A DNA stretch of 10,259 bases from IMG/VR virus record IMGVR_UViG_3300042471_001635, one strand, 5' to 3'. The stretch is from a virus. Lineage: Duplodnaviria; Heunggongvirae; Uroviricota; Caudoviricetes. The notes beneath the pieces are model-generated. The model did not search any database. It was not told the origin of the DNA and saw nothing but the letters and a program-made list of their open reading frames with translations. The position numbers and the translations under genes are program-made. The first letter of the stretch is position 1. The number at the start of each line of letters is the position of its first letter. This document shows positions 1 to 7,260 of this stretch, one piece after another.

Positions 1-2
1 CC

Positions 3-3000
3 TCAGGAACATCCGGCACAACGGGTACGTCTGGTACATCAGGAACATCCGGTACAACTGGAACTAGCGGTACCTCAGGAACTTCTGGTACAACTGGAAC
101 CAGTGGAACTTCAGGTACATCAGGCACATCAGGAACATCAGGTTCTTCAGGAACAAGTGGTACAGACGGAACTTCGGGTACTACTGGAACATCAGGCACA
201 TCAGGTACGAGTGGTACAACTGGTACTTCAGGTACAAGTGGAACTTCTGGTACAACTGGAACTAGCGGTACATCAGGTACGAGTGGTACAACTGGTACTT
301 CAGGTACAAGTGGAACTTCAGGTACAACAGGAACCTCAGGAACATCTGGTACAACAGGTACAAGTGGTACATCAGGAACGTCTGGTACTACTGGAACATC
401 TGGTACAAGTGGTACATCAGGTACATCAGGTACATCAGGTTCTTCAGGGACGAGTGGTACAGACGGAACCTCAGGCACAAGTGGCACATCTGGTACAACA
501 GGAACAAGCGGTACATCCGGCACGAGTGGAACAACTGGTACGTCAGGTACTTCAGGTACAAGTGGAACAACAGGTACTAGCGGAACTTCAGGTACATCTG
601 GAACTACAGGAACAAGCGGAACCTCAGGAACTTCCGGTACTTCAGGAACATCTGGTACTAGCGGAACCTCAGGAACAACTGGTACAAGTGGAACTTCTGG
701 TACAAGTGGTACATCTGGTACAACAGGTACGAGTGGAACTTCAGGTACTTCAGGAACATCTGGTACAAGTGGTACGTCTGGAACAACAGGTACTTCAGGA
801 ACATCTGGTACAAGTGGAACATCAGGAACATCAGGTACTTCAGGTTCAAGTGGAACGTCAGGTTCTTCAGGAACTTCAGGTTCAAGTGGAACATCAGGTT
901 CTTCAGGAACTAGTGGGTTTAGTGGTGTGTCAGGTGGACGAACCCTCTATATGAACTATAGTGTAAACACTAGTTCTGCAATAGGTACTCCAACGTATAA
1001 ACAATTGGGAGATTTCATTTCAGCACCTTTACAAACAATTTCAACAGGTTCAGTTGCAGGAGGAGTTACGGTCACAGTTGCAAGTTTTGCAACAGACACT
1101 GGAGTTCCAAATAATCCTGTGTTTGACGGAGGTATGTATACAGCTTTCTTGCATTTTCAATCAAATAACTCTTCAGCATGGGTATTTTATGTTGAATTTT
1201 ATACATACACAACAGGAGGAACCGAAACTTTAGTCTTCTCAACCTCTGAAACACCTTCTATATCGAGCAGTTCAATACAAATGTACATTGCTGATGGATT
1301 TTACAGTGGTAGTACAATTAATACTTCAGATAGAATTGTTGCTAAGGTTAAAGCTAGAAATACAGACGCACAGGCACATACATTAACATTCTATACAGAG
1401 AACAATCAGTATTCATATCTTTCAACTCCTTTAGCAGCAGTTGAAGGAAGTTCAGGAACATCAGGAACTAGTGGTACATCAGGTTCAAGTGGAACCTCAG
1501 GTACGTCCGGTACTAGTGGCACAAGTGGTACGAGTGGTACTTCAGGAAGTAGTGGTACTTCTGCAACATCAGGAAGTGCGGGTACTTCAGGAACATCAGG
1601 TACAAGTGGCACATCAGGAACATCTGGTACAACAGGTACAAGTGGTACATCAGGAACCTCTGGTACAACAGGTACAAGTGGTACATCAGGAACCTCTGGT
1701 ACTACAGGAACCTCCGGTACATCAGGAACTTCTGGTACGACTGGAACCTCAGGTACATCAGGAACTTCTGGTACGACTGGAACTTCAGGCACTTCAGGAA
1801 CTTCAGGTACAACTGGAACCTCAGGTACTTCGGGAACATCAGGTACGACTGGTACAAGTGGTACTTCAGGTTCTTCAGGTACGAGCGGAACAGATGGTAC
1901 TTCAGGAACAAGCGGAACATCTGGTACAACTGGTACAAGCGGTACATCAGGAACTTCAGGTACAACTGGTACTTCAGGAACAAGCGGAACATCTGGTACA
2001 ACTGGTACTTCAGGAACAAGCGGAACATCTGGTACAACTGGTACTAGTGGAACTTCAGGGACATCAGGAACATCAGGTTCTTCAGGAACAAGCGGAACGG
2101 ATGGTACATCAGGAACAAGTGGTACATCAGGTACTTCAGGCACTTCAGGTACAACGGGTACCTCAGGAACTAGTGGTACATCTGGAACGAGTGGTACAAC
2201 AGGAACAAGCGGTACATCAGGAACGAGTGGTACAACAGGAACAAGTGGTACATCGGGTACTTCAGGTACATCAGGTTCTTCAGGAACTAGCGGTACGGAT
2301 GGAACTTCAGGAACAAGTGGTACTTCAGGAACATCAGGTACAACTGGAACAAGCGGTACATCAGGAACATCAGGTACAACAGGTACTAGTGGAACTTCAG
2401 GGACTTCAGGTACAACAGGAACCAGTGGTACTTCAGGTACTTCAGGTTCTTCAGGAACTTCTGGTACAACAGGAACATCAGGAACGTCTGGTACAACAGG
2501 AACATCAGGAACGTCTGGTACAACAGGAACATCAGGAACTAGCGGAACTTCAGGAACCTCTGGAACTTCAGGTTCTTCGGGAACTAGTGGTACAGACGGA
2601 ACATCTGGTTCAAGTGGAACATCTGGTTCAAGTGGTACTTCAGGTACAACTGGAACATCGGGTACAAGTGGAACGTCAGGAACATCAGGAACATCAGGTT
2701 CTTCAGGAACAAGCGGAACGGATGGTACATCAGGAACAAGTGGTACATCAGGTACTTCAGGCACTTCAGGTACAACGGGTACCTCAGGAACTAGTGGTAC
2801 ATCTGGAACGAGTGGTACAACAGGAACAAGCGGTACATCAGGAACGAGTGGTACAACAGGAACAAGTGGTACATCGGGTACTTCAGGTACATCAGGTTCT
2901 TCAGGAACTAGCGGTACGGATGGAACTTCAGGAACAAGTGGTACTTCAGGAACATCAGGTACAACTGGAACAAGCGGTACATCAGGAACATCAGGTACAA

Positions 3001-5486
3001 CAGGTACTAGTGGAACTTCAGGGACTTCAGGTACAACAGGAACCAGTGGTACTTCAGGTACTTCAGGTTCTTCAGGAACTTCTGGTACAACAGGAACATC
3101 AGGAACGTCTGGTACAACAGGAACATCAGGAACGTCTGGTACAACAGGAACATCAGGAACTAGCGGAACTTCAGGAACCTCTGGAACTTCAGGTTCTTCG
3201 GGAACTAGTGGTACAGACGGAACATCTGGTTCAAGTGGAACATCTGGTTCAAGTGGTACTTCAGGTACAACTGGAACATCGGGTACAAGTGGAACGTCAG
3301 GAACATCTGGAACGACGGGTACTAGTGGAACTTCAGGAACATCAGGTACTACAGGAACGTCAGGTACTAGCGGAACTTCAGGAACTACTGGAACATCAGG
3401 AACAAGTGGAACATCAGGAACATCTGGTACAACTGGAACAAGCGGAACCTCTGGTACTACAGGAACAAGTGGTACTTCGGGAACTAGTGGAACTTCAGGA
3501 ACATCTGGCTCATCAGGAACGAGCGGAACGGACGGAACATCTGGTTCAAGTGGAACATCGGGAACATCAGGTACTTCAGGTACGACAGGTACAAGTGGTA
3601 CTTCAGGAACTACTGGAACATCAGGAACAAGTGGAACATCAGGTACAAGTGGCACTAGTGGTACAACAGGAACAAGTGGTACATCTGGTACTACAGGAAC
3701 AAGTGGTACATCTGGTACTACAGGAACAAGTGGTACAAGTGGAACCTCAGGTACAACTGGAACAAGTGGAACGTCTGGTACAAGTGGTTCATCAGGAACA
3801 AGTGGAACGGATGGTACATCTGGAAGTTCAGGTACTTCAGGTACATCTGGAACTTCAGGAACAACAGGTACATCAGGCACAAGTGGTACTAGTGGTACAA
3901 CAGGTACTTCAGGTACATCTGGAACTTCAGGTACGACAGGTACTTCAGGTACATCTGGAACTTCAGGAACAACAGGCACATCAGGTACAAGTGGTACTAG
4001 TGGTTCATCAGGAACAAGTGGTACTGATGGTACATCGGGAACTTCAGGCACATCGGGAACCTCTGGAACAACTGGAACAAGCGGTACTTCAGGTTCAAGT
4101 GGAACATCAGGTACAACTGGAACAAGTGGTACTTCAGGTTCAAGTGGAACATCAGGTACATCAGGTACAACTGGTACAAGTGGCACTTCTGGAACTACGG
4201 GTACATCAGGTTCTTCTGGAACAAGTGGTACAGATGGGTCTTCAGGAACTTCAGGAACAAGTGGAACTACAGGTACTTCTGGCTCATCAGGTACGTCAGG
4301 TACAAGCGGAACTACAGGTACTTCAGGAACAAGTGGTTCATCAGGAACATCTGGTTCATCTGGCACTTCAGGTACTAGTGGAACGACAGGAACATCAGGT
4401 ACTACCGGTACATCAGGAACAAGTGGTTCATCAGGAACATCTGGCTCATCTGGTACTTCAGGTACTAGTGGAACGACAGGAACATCAGGTACTACCGGTA
4501 CATCAGGAACAAGTGGTTCATCAGGAACATCTGGCTCATCTGGTACTTCAGGTACTAGTGGAACGACAGGTACATCAGGTACTACGGGTACATCAGGTAC
4601 TACGGGTACATCAGGAACAAGTGGTTCATCAGGAACATCTGGCTCATCTGGCACATCTGGAACAAGCGGAACGACAGGTACATCAGGTACTACGGGTACA
4701 TCAGGTACTACGGGTACATCAGGAACAAGTGGTTCATCAGGAACATCTGGCTCATCTGGCACATCTGGAACAAGCGGAACGACAGGTACCTCTGGTACTA
4801 CGGGTACATCAGGTACTACGGGTACATCAGGAACAAGTGGTTCATCAGGAACATCTGGCTCATCTGGCACATCTGGAACAAGTGGAACGACAGGTACCTC
4901 TGGTACTACGGGTACATCAGGTACTACGGGTACATCAGGGACAAGTGGTTCTTCTGGTACCTCTGGAACAAGTGGAACATCGGGTACATCAGGAAGTTCA
5001 GGTCTTGGTACAATTAACAACAATGTAAACAATTATGTTCTTACCGCGACTGGGACCGCAGGAACTATAAACGGCGAGGCAAATCTACAATTTGACGGTA
5101 CAACATTATCTGTTACGGGCGATGCTACGATTACAGGTTCACTAACAGCGGCATCCAAGTCATTTGACATCCCACACCCAACAAAAGAAGGATATAGATT
5201 AAGATACGGTGTGTTGGAAGGTCCTGAACACGGAGTTTACCACAGAGGTAAAGCTACAAGCGAAATAATTGAATTACCTGATTATTGGAGTGAATTGGTA
5301 GACCTTGAAACAACAACAGTTCATCTAACACCTATCGGAAAGTCAAACGACCACTTCGTGGTGAAAGTTGAAGAGAACACAGTTGTGATTGGCTCTGAAA
5401 CAGGTGAAATAAACGCTTACTTCATGGTTCAAGCTGAACGTAAAGACGTGGAAAAGGTCTTGTTAGAGTACAAACCGAATAAATAA
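3..5486 (+). CDS. Giant Gly-Thr/Ser triplet-repeat (collagen-like, proline-free) fibre or surface protein, 5'-truncated by the window edge (at least 1827 aa)
   Basis: Reading codons from position 3 (tca gga aca tcc ggc aca...) gives no stop up to 927, and 3 and 927 share a frame. The ORF-track start GTG at 927 lies inside ...GTS-GFS-GVS-GGR. Stop TAA at 5484-5486. Synonymous third-position variation across the repeats supports this frame as the coding one. The fibre role is inferred from the G-X-Y tracts and the C-terminal domain. Confidence 0.9.
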   Translation, partial: SGTSGTTGTSGTSGTSGTTGTSGTSGTSGTTGTSGTSGTSGTSGTSGSSGTSGTDGTSGTTGTSGTSGTSGTTGTSGTSGTSGTTGTSGTSGTSGTTGTSGTSGTSGTTGTSGTSGTTGTSGTSGTSGTTGTSGTSGTSGTSGTSGSSGTSGTDGTSGTSGTSGTTGTSGTSGTSGTTGTSGTSGTSGTTGTSGTSGTSGTTGTSGTSGTSGTSGTSGTSGTSGTTGTSGTSGTSGTSGTTGTSGTSGTSGTSGTSGTSGTTGTSGTSGTSGTSGTSGTSGSSGTSGSSGTSGSSGTSGSSGTSGFSGVSGGRTLYMNYSVNTSSAIGTPTYKQLGDFISAPLQTISTGSVAGGVTVTVASFATDTGVPNNPVFDGGMYTAFLHFQSNNSSAWVFYVEFYTYTTGGTETLVFSTSETPSISSSSIQMYIADGFYSGSTINTSDRIVAKVKARNTDAQAHTLTFYTENNQYSYLSTPLAAVEGSSGTSGTSGTSGSSGTSGTSGTSGTSGTSGTSGSSGTSATSGSAGTSGTSGTSGTSGTSGTTGTSGTSGTSGTTGTSGTSGTSGTTGTSGTSGTSGTTGTSGTSGTSGTTGTSGTSGTSGTTGTSGTSGTSGTTGTSGTSGSSGTSGTDGTSGTSGTSGTTGTSGTSGTSGTTGTSGTSGTSGTTGTSGTSGTSGTTGTSGTSGTSGTSGSSGTSGTDGTSGTSGTSGTSGTSGTTGTSGTSGTSGTSGTTGTSGTSGTSGTTGTSGTSGTSGTSGSSGTSGTDGTSGTSGTSGTSGTTGTSGTSGTSGTTGTSGTSGTSGTTGTSGTSGTSGSSGTSGTTGTSGTSGTTGTSGTSGTTGTSGTSGTSGTSGTSGSSGTSGTDGTSGSSGTSGSSGTSGTTGTSGTSGTSGTSGTSGSSGTSGTDGTSGTSGTSGTSGTSGTTGTSGTSGTSGTSGTTGTSGTSGTSGTTGTSGTSGTSGTSGSSGTSGTDGTSGTSGTSGTSGTTGTSGTSGTSGTTGTSGTSGTSGTTGTSGTSGTSGSSGTSGTTGTSGTSGTTGTSGTSGTTGTSGTSGTSGTSGTSGSSGTSGTDGTSGSSGTSGSSGTSGTTGTSGTSGTSGTSGTTGTSGTSGTSGTTGTSGTSGTSGTTGTSGTSGTSGTSGTTGTSGTSGTTGTSGTSGTSGTSGTSGSSGTSGTDGTSGSSGTSGTSGTSGTTGTSGTSGTTGTSGTSGTSGTSGTSGTTGTSGTSGTTGTSGTSGTTGTSGTSGTSGTTGTSGTSGTSGSSGTSGTDGTSGSSGTSGTSGTSGTTGTSGTSGTSGTTGTSGTSGTSGTTGTSGTSGTSGTTGTSGTSGTSGSSGTSGTDGTSGTSGTSGTSGTTGTSGTSGSSGTSGTTGTSGTSGSSGTSGTSGTTGTSGTSGTTGTSGSSGTSGTDGSSGTSGTSGTTGTSGSSGTSGTSGTTGTSGTSGSSGTSGSSGTSGTSGTTGTSGTTGTSGTSGSSGTSGSSGTSGTSGTTGTSGTTGTSGTSGSSGTSGSSGTSGTSGTTGTSGTTGTSGTTGTSGTSGSSGTSGSSGTSGTSGTTGTSGTTGTSGTTGTSGTSGSSGTSGSSGTSGTSGTTGTSGTTGTSGTTGTSGTSGSSGTSGSSGTSGTSGTTGTSGTTGTSGTTGTSGTSGSSGTSGTSGTSGTSGSSGLGTINNNVNNYVLTATGTAGTINGEANLQFDGTTLSVTGDATITGSLTAASKSFDIPHPTKEGYRLRYGVLEGPEHGVYHRGKATSEIIELPDYWSELVDLETTTVHLTPIGKSNDHFVVKVEENTVVIGSETGEINAYFMVQAERKDVEKVLLEYKPNK
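6..914 (+). repeat. Coding Gly-X-Y tract 1 (at least 101 triplets of GTS/GTT/GSS/GTD), open at the window start
   Basis: Gly codon every 9 nt from 6 to 915; the register continues through GFS, GVS and GGR to about 941. Confidence 0.95.
942..1445 (+). other. Non-repetitive, probably beta-rich globular domain (~168 aa) between the two repeat tracts
   Basis: TLYMNYS...YLSTPLAAVE, with alternating hydrophobic/aromatic and polar segments (MYTAFLHF, WVFYVEFYTY, RIVAKVKARN, LTFYTE). The fold is not identifiable by eye. Confidence 0.65.
2061..3307 (+). repeat. Perfect 621-bp tandem duplication (2061-2681 and 2682-3302, match extends to 3307)
   Basis: Line-by-line comparison shows identity including synonymous positions; flanking mismatches at 2060/2681 and 2687/3308. 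Confidence 0.9.
4331..4950 (+). repeat. Higher-order tandem array: two 90-bp units then four 108-bp units
   Basis: The anchor aagtggttc recurs at 4331, 4421, 4511, 4619, 4727, 4835 and 4943 (spacings 90, 90, 108, 108, 108, 108). Confidence 0.9.
5004..5483 (+). other. C-terminal domain of the fibre protein: short beta-repeat stalk plus a 'KSFDIPHP...LEGPE...LPDYW...AERKD' module of the kind seen at phage fibre C-termini
   Basis: Motifs NGEANLQFDG, SKSFDIPHPTKEGYRLRYGVLEGPEHGVYHRG, IELPDYWSELVD, TVHLTPIG, VQAERKD. Recognised from memory of phage fibre-like proteins, not from a database search. Confidence 0.55.
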
Positions 5487-5491
5487 AATTG

Positions 5492-5521
5492 AAAAGGGAA
5501 GTGAAAACTTCCCTTTTTTTT
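5492..5521. terminator. Bidirectional intrinsic (Rho-independent) terminator between the convergent genes
   Basis: Perfect 11-bp inverted repeat AAAAGGGAAGT (5492-5502) / ACTTCCCTTTT (5507-5517) with a GAAA (GNRA-type) loop. The T run at 5514-5521 serves the + strand, and the A-rich 5' flank gives a U tail on the - strand. Confidence 0.88.
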
Positions 5522-6191
5522 ATCTATTATCTATGTAAATTATAATTTCAGTAAAAACATCAATGAACTCATCAGTCCAAAATTTTTCTTCAATATTCAG
5601 TCCATTCCAAGACCTGACCTTAAAATTTGGGAAAATCCTCAAATAAGTATCTCTGAAAATTCTGAATTTGGTTTTCAATTCTGGAGTTCTCAAATGCCAT
5701 TCTCCTACAATTTTTCTGACATTTGATTTTATCCAAAATAAGTTTTCAATATTAAAAATATCATATTCGCCACCCTCACAATCAGTTTTCAAAAAATCAA
5801 TTTTGGAAATATTGTAATTTGAGATTACAGATTTGAATGTGGTTGAATATAGTTTATTTTTGTCTTGGTTTTCAAAAACAAATTCAAAATTGAATTCACC
5901 ATCAACATTAGAGATACCTTTATTAATTTGTGTAACAGGACCGAAGTTAGTGTTCTTAACAAGTGTAACAAATTCGGCTAAAGAGGGTTCAAACGCAAAA
6001 ACATGAGAAGGTTTTTTATCCAATATAGAGAAAGTAAAAGGACCCAAACTTGCTCCTACATCAAAAACAACGTCCCCTTGTTCCACCTCAAAGTATTTTT
6101 CATATAGATTATCTATAAAAATTTCTTTATAAACGGTCTCTTTGAAACCCTCATAACACTGAGGTTCCCAAATGAAATTTTCTAAATTCAT
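5520..6191 (-). CDS. FkbM-family (Methyltransf_21) SAM-dependent methyltransferase, 223 aa
   Basis: Motif I DVVFDVGASLG, then VFAFEP and IDFLKTDCEGGEY, which match the FkbM family pattern. Its ATG overlaps the upstream TGA (ATGA at 6191-6188). Confidence 0.88.
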   Translation of the reverse strand: MNLENFIWEPQCYEGFKETVYKEIFIDNLYEKYFEVEQGDVVFDVGASLGPFTFSILDKKPSHVFAFEPSLAEFVTLVKNTNFGPVTQINKGISNVDGEFNFEFVFENQDKNKLYSTTFKSVISNYNISKIDFLKTDCEGGEYDIFNIENLFWIKSNVRKIVGEWHLRTPELKTKFRIFRDTYLRIFPNFKVRSWNGLNIEEKFWTDEFIDVFTEIIIYIDNR

Positions 6192-7260
6192 AATAAGTGT
6201 TGAATTTGTTTGATTAACATTTCTGATGTTATTGATTTATGACATTCAAAATGTCTCTCAGTACCTTTATGTACTGGGCACCAATCCCAATCACCCTTAT
6301 CAAAAGAAAATTCAGGTTTATTCCAACAACCATTACAAACTGATAAGTTTATAATTCTTGTACAGTTTGATTGGAATTCGTGGTCAGGGGTGGTGAAATT
6401 ACTTATCATCACAACATGTTTACCCATCCCCCAAGCAAGCCAGCTTAATCCACTCGATAGTCCAATGAAAAATTCGCTATGATGAATAACATTCATTGTA
6501 TTTTCCATTGAGGTATCAGTAATTCTAATTTGGTTTTCAAAGGGATTGTTTTCTTTGGAAACATTTACCACTTTATAACCTAATGATGTTAGATAATTTA
6601 TGGTTTCTTGCCAACCTTCTCTTGTCCAAAACTTACATCCCGCAGTAGAATTGGTGGCAATTGTCACATACTTATCCGCATATGGTCTTTCTTTAATTTC
6701 ATAATGTATCTTTGGTTGTATTTCTTTGAATTCTAATCCAAGAATATCAGTTGCAGTTTGTTGTAAAGGAATTAGGTTAGGTTTCGTAGGTTGCATATCT
6801 ACGTTATAGAACCAACCAAGTTTATACATTCCGTGAATATTATTCACTACAGTTCCAGGTGTTACAAATATCACATCAGGGTAAACAGATTCAAAAAGAT
6901 GATTCCAAAAAGTTGAAACAACTACCTCACAATTATTATGTTTTCTAAATTCTTCAACATATGGAACCCATGAAATAGTATCACCCAAAGACTTGGAATC
7001 AAATGCGATGTAAACACGTTTACCTTCATAGTTCAGGGTGTTTTCATAAACCAAATTGTCATTTTCCCATACTTTGGTATTCCATCTTGTAAAATACTGT
7101 CTGTTAAGTTTAACCCAACTATTAATCGGTAGTAGGTTTTCATAATGTAAAACCCCTTTCTCATCAAAAAACTGAACTTTGAACTTATTCTCACTTTTAC
7201 CTTTAATTTCGATAAAAGGTTGATTTATGAAATATTGTGTAACTGACAATTTGCTCTTAA
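6188..7260 (-). other. Autotransporter heptosyltransferase (BAHT; TibC/Aah-like, GT9-related) domain with iron-finger motif
   Basis: N-terminal beta subdomain followed by SKSLGDTISWVPY (Asp at 6980-6982), STAGCKFW (Lys at 6632-6634), EFFIGLSSGLSWLAW, MISNFT and C-x2-C-x15-C-x11-C (Cys at 6337, 6328, 6280, 6244). Confidence 0.85.

What the first reader, a model, noticed from the sequence alone, without database searches (positions are those of the whole stretch)
6188..7260. TibC/Aah-type heptosyltransferase domain outside its known autotransporter context, with catalytic residues and iron finger intact
Seen in sequence: LGDT Asp, CKFW Lys 116 codons later, and four Cys spaced 3/16/12 residues apart. 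Established (recalled, not looked up): TibC uses Asp110 and Lys230, binds Fe through Cys339/342/358/370 (the same 3/16/12 spacing), forms a dodecameric ring and acts as a stand-alone enzyme on autotransporters such as TibA and AIDA-I. No autotransporter is visible in this window, and the domain is a C-terminal fusion. Inference: it is redeployed onto a non-beta-helix substrate. If ring assembly is retained, the ring would display 60 or more GT domains. The donor may be host ADP-heptose (implying a Gram-negative host) or a different nucleotide sugar.
Basis: partly seen in the sequence, partly recalled or inferred. Interest (0 to 1): 0.78.

Follow-up and report, generated by a model that had tools for sequence, protein, structure and literature searches.

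The report
Phage TibC-like fibre-glycosylating enzyme domain
A lake-water phage carries a true but "thumbless" relative of the E. coli adhesin-sugar-coating enzyme TibC as the last of five sugar-transferase domains in one giant protein, and it most likely sugar-coats the phage's own proline-free Gly-Thr-Ser collagen-like fibre encoded next door; no experiment has tested this.

Summary
Residues 949-1279 of the minus-strand ORF match TIGR04414 at 283.7 bits (cut-off 200) and TibC (PDB 4rap) at E 9e-50. The model overlays TibC at TM 0.91, against 0.41-0.52 for WaaC/WaaF. Asp1018, Thr1130, Lys1134, Trp1198 and Cys1233/1236/1252/1264 align with the TibC residues.

Three things differ from classical TibC/Aah:
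- The beta-hairpin thumb that builds the dodecamer ring is deleted.
- The adenine-contact Arg286 is Thr.
- The domain ends a protein that is 1570 aa in a longer contig holding the window: GT-A, GT25, GT-A, GT4, TibC-like.

There is no autotransporter. A convergent gene encodes a >=1827-aa fibre whose repeats are almost only Gly, Thr and Ser. This pairing recurs: 26 of 36 dereplicated viral lineages have a collagen-like ORF downstream, against 1 of 43 upstream. In the reverse test the counts are 14/19 against 0/30.

Best reading (0.6): priming O-glycosylation of the phage's own Ser/Thr-rich fibre, with the glycan extended and methylated by the neighbouring domains. A ring is doubtful and the donor is open.

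This scan reached a similar reading on other DNA (e1-5385743, e1-5361287, e1-1842438, e1-5335795). I found no paper describing it.

The parts
6191..7273 (-). TibC/Aah-like (BAHT-type) domain: N-terminal beta-barrel plus GT-B catalytic core plus Cys4 finger. Residues about 921-1281 of the in-window ORF.
   Evidence: TIGR04414 at 283.7 bits against a cut-off of 200. TibC 4rap at E 9e-50. AF2 model pLDDT 94.8, TM 0.91 to 4rap.
6980..6982 (-). Asp1018 in LGDT, equivalent to the TibC catalytic base Asp110.
   Evidence: Alignment, codon check. Invariant in 54 of 54 phage homologues.
6632..6646 (-). Thr1130 to Lys1134 (T-A-G-C-K), equivalent to the TibC beta-phosphate contacts Thr226 and Lys230.
   Evidence: Residue roles from PMC4358343.
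6497..6499 (-). Thr1179 at the position of TibC Arg286, the adenine N1 contact.
   Evidence: Thr in 52 of 54 phage sequences, Arg in 3 of 3 bacterial BAHTs. Arg in nearly all classical BAHTs from cellular genomes.
6521..6565 (-). Short loop (NVSKENNPFENQIRI) where TibC has the beta-hairpin thumb. About 10 residues, including the F265/V266 tip, are missing.
   Evidence: HMMER alignment. MAFFT alignment with three bacterial BAHTs. This segment is 15 residues here and 24 in classical BAHTs.
6242..6337 (-). Cys4 'iron-finger' motif: C1233, C1236, C1252, C1264, with F1262 at the TibC F368 position.
   Evidence: Metal binding was not tested.
7244..8356 (-). GT4-type GT-B domain (Glycos_transf_1).
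   Evidence: PF00534 at E 2e-13, residues 741-891. phrog_2170 glycosyltransferase.
8354..9286 (-). GT-A domain with a DxD motif (YVDADS), GT8/Nucleotid_trans-like. No Pfam hit.
   Evidence: Invariant D113 and D115 in 38 homologues. Weak profile hit to the Skp1 alpha-galactosyltransferase 6mw5, E 0.23. Atlas leads to viral GT8/PF03407 clusters.
9284..10033 (-). GT25-family GT-A domain.
   Evidence: PF01755 at 32 bits against a cut-off of 24. phrog_2835 glucosyltransferase. Weak PDB hits to procollagen galactosyltransferase 1, E 0.02-0.04.
10034..10258 (-). In-frame end of a further GT-A domain. The gene runs off the window; the full protein is 1570 aa.
   Evidence: Translation. L169:5292-10004 in a contig 100% identical to the window. 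The extra N-terminal domain is 48% identical to the internal GT-A domain.
5520..6191 (-). FkbM-family methyltransferase, 223 aa. Its start overlaps the stop of the glycosyltransferase gene by 4 bases.
   Evidence: PF05050 at E 1e-8 and TIGR01444 at 50.5 bits. Coordinates.
5491..5518 (.). Hairpin with T runs on both strands between the two convergent genes: a bidirectional terminator-like site.
3..5486 (+). Giant collagen-like fibre gene, 5' end cut by the window (>=1827 aa). Its Gly-X-Y runs are T533, G501, S445, D13 of 1497 residues, with no Pro, Lys or Glu. A non-collagen insert lies at about residues 314-481. This is the candidate substrate.
   Evidence: Translation, composition. Tandem 9/18/36-base periodicity. 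Conserved convergent synteny.
4965..5483 (+). C-terminal globular domain of the fibre. In cultured phages this domain sits in the tail or baseplate gene region.
   Evidence: phrog_17490 at E 6e-40. 40-55% identity to Flavobacterium phage immuto 'tail fiber-like protein' and to small cyanophage proteins beside baseplate genes.

Best explanation
The stretch encodes the C-terminal domain of a cytoplasmic, five-domain phage glycosyltransferase that is 1570 aa when complete. The domain belongs to a phage-specific clade of the TibC/Aah (BAHT) protein O-glycosyltransferases.

Proposed mechanism:
1. During late infection the TibC-like domain uses Asp1018 as the base to transfer the first sugar from a nucleotide sugar onto Ser/Thr hydroxyls. 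The donor is probably a heptose-type one supplied by the host.
2. The main target is the phage's own Gly-Thr-Ser collagen-like fibre, encoded convergently next door. The Thr/Pro-rich mucin-like proteins on the other side of the cluster may be further targets.
3. The fused GT4, GT25 and two GT-A domains and a neighbouring stand-alone GT9 extend the glycan.
4. The FkbM and Methyltransf_24 methyltransferases and a sulfotransferase decorate it.

The fibre repeats have no proline and no salt-bridge residues, so glycosylation may be what lets them form or hold a triple helix, and it would give the virion a glycan coat.

Shown: the identity of the domain, its residues, the fusion, and the synteny. 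Inferred: the acceptor, the order of the steps, the donor, and the role in folding. The enzyme probably does not form the TibC dodecamer, because the thumb is missing.
For: Family membership: TIGR04414 at 283.7 bits against 200, TibC at E 9e-50, and TM 0.91 to 4rap against 0.41-0.52 for WaaC/WaaF.

Catalytic and sugar-phosphate residues and the Cys4 motif are invariant in 54 phage homologues.

Classical BAHT genes lie directly beside their substrate genes. By the same logic:
- 38 of 62 TibC-seeded viral loci with >=3 kb of downstream flank have a convergent collagen-like ORF within 5 kb downstream; 0 of 75 with >=3 kb of upstream flank have one within 5 kb upstream.
- After dereplication at 90% identity the counts are 26/36 (24 of them Ser/Thr-rich) against 1/43. 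At 70% identity they are 14/18 against 0/23.
- Reverse test, seeded with the fibre's C-terminal domain: 14 of 19 Ser/Thr-collagen fibres have a TibC-like domain within 10 kb, against 0 of 30 non-collagen carriers of that domain.
- The cultured Microcystis phage Mel-JY01 has the same pairing.
- In cellular genomes and MAGs, collagen-like neighbours occur only beside non-classical forms.

The fibre repeats hold 978 Ser/Thr in 1497 residues, with no Pro, Lys or Glu.

Precedents from papers:
- (Gly-Pro-Thr)10 is triple-helical only when its Thr residues are galactosylated (PMC11923368).
- C. difficile SgtA, encoded beside bclA3, O-GlcNAcylates Thr in its GPT repeats (PMC7157674).
- Mycobacteriophage virions are glycosylated (cited in PMC12619734).

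The extended cluster also carries a GT9, two methyltransferases and a sulfotransferase.
Against: - There is no biochemical evidence of any kind.
- The synteny is not universal. About 28% of dereplicated lineages have no collagen-like neighbour within 7 kb, and these include L002 and L003, the two closest TibC-domain relatives.
- The loci are related phages, so the counts are not independent events.
- In the 735-kb phage LR756501 the fibre-domain gene lies 180 kb from the TibC-like gene.
- Arg286, whose alanine mutant abolished or largely diminished TibC activity (PMC4358343), is Thr, so the donor, or even activity, could differ.
- gmhA and hldE-domain-II models found nothing in two complete relatives, and the host is unknown.
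- Which of several Ser/Thr-rich neighbours is modified cannot be told from sequence.
Confidence: 0.6

Rival explanations
1. Host-envelope remodelling. The multi-glycosyltransferase and its neighbours act on host glycans (LPS core, capsule or S-layer glycan) during infection, for example to block superinfection. This is how phage GT9 genes are usually annotated.
For: The Pfam GT9 and GT25 families are named for LPS enzymes. A huge-phage paper reads a phage 'heptosyltransferase I' as an LPS-modifying auxiliary gene (PMC10747093). A second GT9 with weak WaaC/WaaF similarity lies in the cluster.
Against: The domain scores 23-27 bits on the WaaC model against a cut-off of 185. It keeps the TibC-specific beta-barrel and Cys4 finger. 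It falls in the TibC superfamily tree, not with WaaC. An LPS role does not explain the one-sided, convergent pairing with Ser/Thr-rich fibres.
Confidence: 0.12
2. The same enzyme class with other protein targets. The TibC-like domain modifies the Thr/Pro-rich mucin-like modular proteins on the other side of the cluster, other virion proteins (capsid or tail tube, as in mycobacteriophages), or a host protein, and the collagen-like fibre is not its acceptor.
For: Three consecutive Thr-Pro-rich proteins (1291, 517 and 732 aa) flank the cluster in contigs that contain the window. About a quarter of lineages have no collagen-like neighbour.
Against: Thr-Pro-rich neighbours were found in only 11 of 80 related loci, about three lineages. 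Collagen-like neighbours are found in most.
Confidence: 0.18
3. Glycan hypermodification of phage DNA by the fused transferases, with the TibC-like domain recruited for a non-protein acceptor.
For: Phage glycosyltransferases that glycosylate DNA are well known (cited in PMC12619734). The Methyltransf_24 neighbour matches a PHROG labelled DNA methyltransferase.
Against: No hydroxymethyl-pyrimidine pathway gene appeared among the called genes of the about 21 kb of contigs read; their Pfam and PHROG hits were glycosyltransferases, methyltransferases and a sulfotransferase, and no pathway model was searched. The closest characterised relatives all act on protein Ser. The synteny is with structural Ser/Thr-rich genes.
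Confidence: 0.04
4. A structural or degenerate domain: an inactive TibC-like module kept as a fibre-binding or scaffolding part of the enzyme.
For: Arg286 is lost and the thumb deleted. Both were needed for TibC activity in E. coli (PMC4358343).
Against: The catalytic Asp, Thr/Lys, Trp and all four Cys are invariant across a clade whose members are down to about 48% identical. That pattern indicates selection on catalysis.
Confidence: 0.06

Closest known systems
TibC (ETEC) and Aah/AAH (DAEC): bacterial autotransporter heptosyltransferases (BAHT; NCBIfam TIGR04414; PDB 4RAP/4RB4; PMC4358343)
   Same: The whole protomer fold (N-terminal beta-barrel, GT-B core, Cys4 finger) at TM 0.91. The catalytic Asp, the Thr/Lys phosphate contacts and the heptose-contact Trp are kept. 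Ser at the P300 position matches AAH. The gene lies beside a giant repetitive Ser/Thr-bearing protein.
   Different: About 30-36% identity, and a separate, strongly supported phage clade. The beta-hairpin thumb is deleted and Arg286 is Thr. The domain is fused as the last of five GT domains rather than standing alone at about 400 aa. The neighbour is a collagen-like triple-helix candidate, not an AIDA-type beta-helix autotransporter. The host and the donor are unknown.
BclA / BclA3 collagen-like exosporium glycoproteins with the adjacent glycosyltransferase SgtA (Bacillus, C. difficile; PMC7157674)
   Same: Gly-X-Thr collagen-like repeats are O-glycosylated on Thr (Ser is accepted) by a transferase encoded next to the substrate gene, and the glycan is then extended.
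   Different: SgtA is an O-GlcNAc transferase of another family. The repeats there are Gly-Pro-Thr; here they are proline-free Gly-Thr-Ser. That system is bacterial spore surface, not phage.
Mycobacteriophage virion glycosylation (Freeman et al. 2023, as cited in PMC12619734)
   Same: Phage-encoded glycosyltransferases modify the phage's own structural proteins in the host cytoplasm.
   Different: The targets there are the C-termini of capsid and tail-tube subunits. The transferase families differ, and there is no TibC-like domain or collagen-like substrate.
Giant-virus (Mimivirus) collagen and fibril glycosylation; animal procollagen galactosyltransferase (GT25)
   Same: A virus-encoded collagen-like protein together with virus-encoded glycosyltransferases. 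A GT25-family domain is present here too (weak PDB hits to COLGALT1).
   Different: Those enzymes glycosylate hydroxylysine. The fibre repeats here hold no lysine, and those viruses infect eukaryotes.
LPS heptosyltransferases WaaC/WaaF (GT9)
   Same: The same CAZy-level GT-B family (Pfam PF01075 hit at 22.3 bits).
   Different: Far below the family cut-offs (23-27 bits against 185). Fold TM is only 0.41-0.52. They have no beta-barrel and no Cys4 finger.

Membership tests
BAHT (TibC/Aah, TIGR04414) | Full-length match to the curated family model above its cut-off | tested here: met
   283.7 bits against a cut-off of 200, profile positions 27-373 of 374.
BAHT (TibC/Aah, TIGR04414) | Protomer fold: N-terminal beta-barrel plus GT-B core plus finger module | tested here: met
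   AF2 model with pLDDT 94.8. TM 0.91 and rmsd 2.1-2.9 A to 4rap/4rb4 over about 370 columns.
BAHT (TibC/Aah, TIGR04414) | Catalytic base Asp110 and sugar-phosphate/heptose contacts Thr226, Lys230, Trp305 | tested here: met
   D1018, T1130, K1134 and W1198, each invariant in 54 of 54 phage homologues.
BAHT (TibC/Aah, TIGR04414) | Arg286 contact to adenine N1 (basis of ADP-sugar specificity; R286A abolishes or largely diminishes activity) | tested here: not met
   Thr1179 here. Thr in 52 of 54 phage sequences, Arg in classical BAHTs. Role from PMC4358343.
BAHT (TibC/Aah, TIGR04414) | Four Cys of the 1Fe-0S iron finger (C339/342/358/370) | tested here: met
   C1233/1236/1252/1264 with the same 3/16/12 spacing. 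Only the sequence was tested. Iron binding cannot be tested here.
   A 10-residue deletion. The segment is 15 residues against 24 in classical members.
BAHT (TibC/Aah, TIGR04414) | Dodecameric ring | not testable with these tools
   The sequence shows only that the thumb contact is missing. SEC-MALS or cryo-EM is needed.
BAHT (TibC/Aah, TIGR04414) | Gene adjacent to an AIDA-type autotransporter substrate | tested here: not met
   None in the window or in the 16-21 kb contigs that contain it. Bacterial members checked do have one.
BAHT (TibC/Aah, TIGR04414) | Placement inside the classical TibC/Aah clade | tested here: not met
   The window falls in a separate clade of 56 rows (SH-aLRT 100), nearly all viral. 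The classical forms make their own clade with support 100 (quick ML tree, midpoint root).
BAHT (TibC/Aah, TIGR04414) | Transfer of heptose from ADP-heptose to protein Ser | not testable with these tools
   Needs an enzyme assay. No gmhA or hldE domain II in two complete relatives.
LPS heptosyltransferase I/II (WaaC/WaaF) | Match to TIGR02193/TIGR02195 above the cut-off, and a WaaC-like fold | tested here: not met
   22.8-27 bits against 185.3. TM 0.41-0.52.
Collagen-like triple-helix protein (the candidate substrate) | Long uninterrupted Gly-X-Y runs | tested here: met
   Runs of 312, 39 and 1146 residues in the window. Triple-helix formation itself was not tested, and the usual stabilisers (Pro, Lys-Glu/Asp pairs) are absent.

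The most novel reading that the evidence does not exclude
Phages of lakes and seas carry their own clade of TibC-type protein O-glycosyltransferases, built into single-chain glycan assembly lines. Its job would be to hyperglycosylate proline-free Gly-Thr-Ser collagen-like fibres. The sugars, rather than hydroxyproline or salt bridges, would be what makes these triple helices fold. The result would be glycan-coated, mucin-like virion fibres, made by an enzyme that has given up the dodecameric ring and perhaps the ADP-heptose donor.
Probability: 0.35. Interest if true: 0.8.

Novelty: new variant of a known kind. Interest (0 to 1): 0.62.

Why it matters
Outside autotransporter loci, TibC/Aah-type enzymes have been studied only in Burkholderia BimC. 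Phage virion glycosylation has been shown only recently, in mycobacteriophages.

Here a large family is involved. It has 761 clusters at E<1e-30 (50%-identity representatives) in the representative library and at least 93 IMG/VR contigs. Its members place a TibC-type priming domain inside multi-enzyme proteins beside giant Ser/Thr-only collagen-like fibres.

If confirmed, this would:
1. Add a new substrate class and a new oligomeric state to the BAHT family.
2. Supply the enzyme behind the long-standing idea that Thr glycosylation stabilises hydroxyproline-free collagens.
3. Show that aquatic phages coat their fibres with methylated, possibly sulfated, glycans, which bears on adsorption, host range and particle stability.
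4. Offer compact one-chain glycosylation modules for glyco-engineering.

It also exposes an annotation hazard. The NCBIfam 'equivalog' model would name these phage proteins 'autotransporter strand-loop-strand O-heptosyltransferase'.

Tried and rejected
- Complex prediction on two copies of the TibC-like domain with Fe gave no verdict (score 0.00). It says nothing for or against dimerisation.
- The look-up of sequencing runs listed no RNA holder, so expression is untested.
- No whole genome is held for the window.
- gmhA (TIGR00441) and hldE domain II (TIGR02199) models found nothing in relatives G001-G003 or in Mel-JY01. Only relatives were searched, not this phage.
- A psbA/Photo_RC search of five relatives was negative, so a cyanophage origin could not be shown. 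The host stays unknown.
- The GT-A domain at residues 250-580 has no Pfam or PHROG hit. A 38-sequence profile gave only E 0.23 against the PDB. Its GT8-like label rests on the DxD motif and on Atlas leads.
- The GT25 link to procollagen galactosyltransferase is weak, E 0.02-0.04 over 37 residues, and is treated as a lead only.
- Literature searches for TibC/heptosyltransferase with phage, cyanophage or collagen-like terms, and for Mel-JY01, found no description of this system.
- I considered whether the long antisense ORFs in the repeat (1406..5032 minus, 1441..5028 plus) could be real genes. I rejected them because the Gly-Thr-Ser frame runs into a C-terminal domain with strong phage homologues.
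Full report
**What is in the window.** The window holds two convergent transcription units.
- On the + strand, 3..5486 is the 3' part of a giant gene. Its product (>=1827 aa in the window) is almost entirely Gly-Thr-Ser / Gly-Thr-Thr / Gly-Ser-Ser triplets. It is broken by one non-collagen insert and ends in a globular domain.
- On the - strand, 6188..10258 encodes a large glycosyltransferase that runs off the window.
- It is followed, with a 4-base overlap, by an FkbM-family methyltransferase (5520..6191).
- A hairpin with T runs on both strands (5491-5518) lies between the two stop codons.
- G+C is about 30% outside the repeat and 48% inside it, as the Gly, Thr and Ser codons require.

**Check of the observation.**
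- TIGR04414 (hepto_Aah_TibC) matches residues 949-1279 at 283.7 bits, against a cut-off of 200.
- phmmer against the PDB finds only TibC, at E 8.9e-50.
- In that alignment, and by codon check, LGDT Asp1018 equals TibC Asp110. CKFW Lys1134 equals Lys230, 116 codons later. Cys1233/1236/1252/1264 equal Cys339/342/358/370, with 3/16/12 spacing.
- An AlphaFold2 model built on 53 sequences (pLDDT 94.8) overlays TibC at TM 0.91. WaaC, WaaF and another GT9 reach only 0.41-0.52, and the WaaC model scores 23-27 bits against a cut-off of 185.

**How it differs from TibC/Aah.** I aligned 54 non-redundant phage domains with three bacterial BAHTs that lie beside autotransporter-type genes: AIDA-I, an AIDA-repeat protein and an 'outer membrane protein'.
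- Asp110, Thr226, Lys230, Trp305, Phe368 and the four Cys are conserved.
- Arg286, which hydrogen-bonds adenine N1 and whose alanine mutant abolished or largely diminished activity, is Thr in 52 of 54 phage sequences.
- The beta-hairpin thumb is missing: about 10 residues are deleted, including the Phe265/Val266 tip. Mutating that tip reduces the dodecamer to dimers and abolishes activity in TibC.
- Position 300 is Ser, as in AAH, which tolerates both heptose epimers.

In a maximum-likelihood tree of 136 domains the window falls in a clade of 56 rows (SH-aLRT 100). That clade is nearly all viral and thumbless. It is separate from the classical clade (support 100) that holds Aah-type enzymes of Enterobacteria, Burkholderia and Selenomonadales. 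Two further bacterial groups lie between them: one with a 21-residue thumb and a hydrophobic residue at position 286, and one thumbless but with Arg. The tree was a quick search with a midpoint root, so only the separation is claimed, not its direction.

**The whole protein.** The ORF has no stop upstream of its first ATG, and the 75 residues there look like the end of a GT-A domain. A metagenome contig that contains the whole window at 100% identity (L169) shows the complete 1570-aa gene. Its domains are:
1. GT-A with DxD.
2. GT25.
3. A second GT-A, 48% identical to the first.
4. GT4.
5. The TibC-like domain.

The same contigs show further genes:
- Upstream on the same strand lie a stand-alone GT9 protein (314 aa, with an LGDT motif, not a TIGR04414 member) and a Methyltransf_24 protein.
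- Divergently transcribed lie a Sulfotransfer_4 protein and then three consecutive Thr/Pro-rich, Cys-rich modular proteins of 1291, 517 and 732 aa.

The full-length protein begins directly with the first GT-A domain, which fits a cytoplasmic enzyme. No signal-peptide or transmembrane predictor was run.

**What it is part of.**
- No genome is held for the window.
- The DNA is present in full in 20 lake-water metagenome runs from 2020 and 2024. These may include its source.
- The fibre's C-terminal domain matches phrog_17490 (E 6e-40). It is 40-55% identical to a Flavobacterium phage 'tail fiber-like protein' and to small proteins beside baseplate genes of T4-like cyanophages.
- The closest loci come from large freshwater phages, including a 321-kb genome with terminal repeats.
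- The element is therefore a phage, and the fibre is most likely a virion appendage.

**Evidence for the substrate.** Classical BAHT genes lie directly beside their substrate genes. I asked what lies beside the phage domain.
- Of 62 IMG/VR loci with at least 3 kb downstream, 38 have a collagen-like ORF (>=100 residues of Gly-X-Y runs) within 5 kb. All 38 are convergent. None of 75 loci has one upstream.
- Counting one locus per 90%-identity cluster gives 26/36 (24 of them Ser/Thr-rich) against 1/43. At 70% identity it is 14/18 against 0/23.
- The triplets are Gly-Thr-Ser with essentially no proline in nearly all of them.
- The reverse test starts from the fibre's C-terminal domain. Of 19 fibres with Ser/Thr-rich collagen repeats, 14 have a TibC-like domain within 10 kb. 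None of 30 complete non-collagen carriers of that domain does.
- Cultured cyanophages that lack the enzyme carry the domain on short non-collagen proteins.
- The cultured Microcystis phage Mel-JY01 has an unannotated Gly-Thr/Ser-Ser collagen-like ORF two genes upstream of a 1226-aa protein ending in a TibC-like domain.
- Among cellular genomes and MAGs, collagen-like neighbours occur only beside non-classical forms. Classical forms lie beside large same-strand ORFs.

These counts come from related phages and are not independent events. About a quarter of lineages, including the two closest relatives by TibC domain, have no such neighbour.

**Why a sugar coat makes sense.**
- The in-window repeats are 533 Thr, 501 Gly, 445 Ser and 13 Asp in 1497 residues, with no Pro, Lys or Glu.
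- Both known ways of stabilising a triple helix, imino acids and Lys-Glu/Asp salt bridges, are therefore absent.
- (Gly-Pro-Thr)10 is a random coil that becomes triple-helical when its Thr residues are galactosylated, and Thr-containing triplets are over-represented in bacterial and viral collagen-like proteins (PMC11923368).
- C. difficile SgtA, encoded next to bclA3, adds O-GlcNAc to Thr, and also Ser, of its collagen repeats (PMC7157674).

I therefore propose that the TibC-like domain primes Ser/Thr of the fibre. The other transferases then extend the glycan, and the methyl- and sulfotransferases decorate it. The order of steps and the role in folding are inferences.

**Ring and donor.**
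- The Cys4 finger, which in TibC supports the back-to-back dimer and substrate binding, is retained. A dimer prediction gave no verdict.
- The donor remains open.
  - The heptose and phosphate contacts are conserved, and a second GT9 in the cluster argues for a heptose-type sugar.
  - Against an ADP-heptose donor, the adenine contact is lost.
  - gmhA and hldE-domain-II models found nothing in two complete related phage genomes.
  - The host is unknown.

**Rivals.** The alternatives are action on host LPS or capsule (the usual annotation of phage GT9 genes, e.g. PMC10747093), action on the Thr/Pro-rich neighbours or other proteins, DNA glycosylation, or an inactive scaffold domain. None is excluded by experiment. 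The TibC-specific architecture, the invariant catalytic residues and the one-sided synteny make each less likely than fibre glycosylation.

**Novelty.**
- The family is large: 1515 representative clusters at E<=0.001 and 761 at E<=1e-30. Most of the best 150 are proteins of 500-2000 aa.
- I found no paper that describes TibC-type enzymes in phages or pairs them with collagen-like fibres. Absence from this library is not proof.
- Earlier notes of this scan reached a similar reading on other DNA (e1-5385743, e1-5361287, e1-1842438, e1-5335795). I had written my reading down before seeing them, and I re-derived each point here.
- I class it as a new variant of a known kind: a true BAHT relative with a changed oligomerisation element, a changed nucleotide contact, a fused context and a different likely substrate.

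Noticed in passing
L169:3719-4663 (+), outside the window, 5.3 kb beyond its right end: A second, stand-alone GT9-family protein (314 aa) with an LGDT motif and a Cys-rich C-terminus. It is not a TIGR04414 member and is only weakly like WaaC/WaaF (25 bits). It is 19% identical to the TibC-like core.
   Followed up: partly
L255:9086-16958 (+), outside the window: Three consecutive proteins (1291, 517 and 732 aa) built of Cys-rich globular modules joined by long Thr-Pro-Thr-Gln/Glu mucin-like linkers. They flank the glycosylation cluster on the side away from the collagen-like fibre. Similar neighbours occur in only about three related lineages (11 of 80 loci).
   Followed up: partly
L169:2730-3656 (-) and L169:4671-5288 (+), outside the window: A Sulfotransfer_4 protein and a Methyltransf_24 protein lie in the same cluster, which suggests sulfated and methylated glycans. 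The methyltransferase's PHROG label is 'DNA methyltransferase'.
   Followed up: no
window 3-5486; L169, L170, L171: Contigs carrying the identical FkbM protein differ in the length of the fibre repeat: the antisense ORF is called at 1208, 1001 and 929 aa, and identity to the window is 100%, 98.5% and 91.6%. Every contig shown by the two look-ups ends inside the repeat. This is either repeat-number variation in the population or assembly collapse.
   Followed up: no
window 909-1445 (+), fibre residues about 314-481: A non-collagen, probably beta-rich insert interrupts the Gly-Thr-Ser repeats. It has no Pfam or PHROG hit, but it recurs in fibres of several related loci (L016-L018, L021, L027, L029, L032, L071).
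   Followed up: no
L001 (Microcystis phage Mel-JY01, PP395634.1) 2-3049 (+): A 1016-residue open frame with 606 residues of Gly-Thr/Ser-Ser collagen-like repeats is not annotated. The record instead lists three other CDSs there, two of them on the opposite strand. The frame starts at the first bases of the linear record, so the gene may be cut by the record's ends. The neighbouring 1226-aa 'methyltransferase FkbM' shows GT4 and TibC-like domains but no FkbM hit in Pfam.
   Followed up: partly
L186, L188, L190 and others (cellular genomes): Two bacterial groups of TibC-like proteins are neither classical nor phage-type. One has a 21-residue thumb and a hydrophobic residue at position 286 (Methylococcales, Bradyrhizobium and others). 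The other is thumbless but keeps Arg286 (Gammaproteobacteria, Arenicellales). Most have no large adjacent ORF, so their substrates are unknown.
   Followed up: partly
window 6188-7273 (-): TIGR04414 is an 'equivalog' model and this phage domain passes its cut-off. Automatic annotation would therefore call the protein 'autotransporter strand-loop-strand O-heptosyltransferase' although no autotransporter is present.
   Followed up: yes
window 5491-5518: A 12-bp-stem hairpin flanked by T runs on both strands sits exactly between the two convergent stop codons. It looks like a shared bidirectional terminator.
   Followed up: partly
window 1406-5032 (-) and 1441-5028 (+): Very long ORFs in other frames and on the opposite strand of the repeat are by-products of the 9-base periodicity. 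Gene callers picked one of them (1208 aa) instead of the Gly-Thr-Ser frame in the public contigs.
   Followed up: yes
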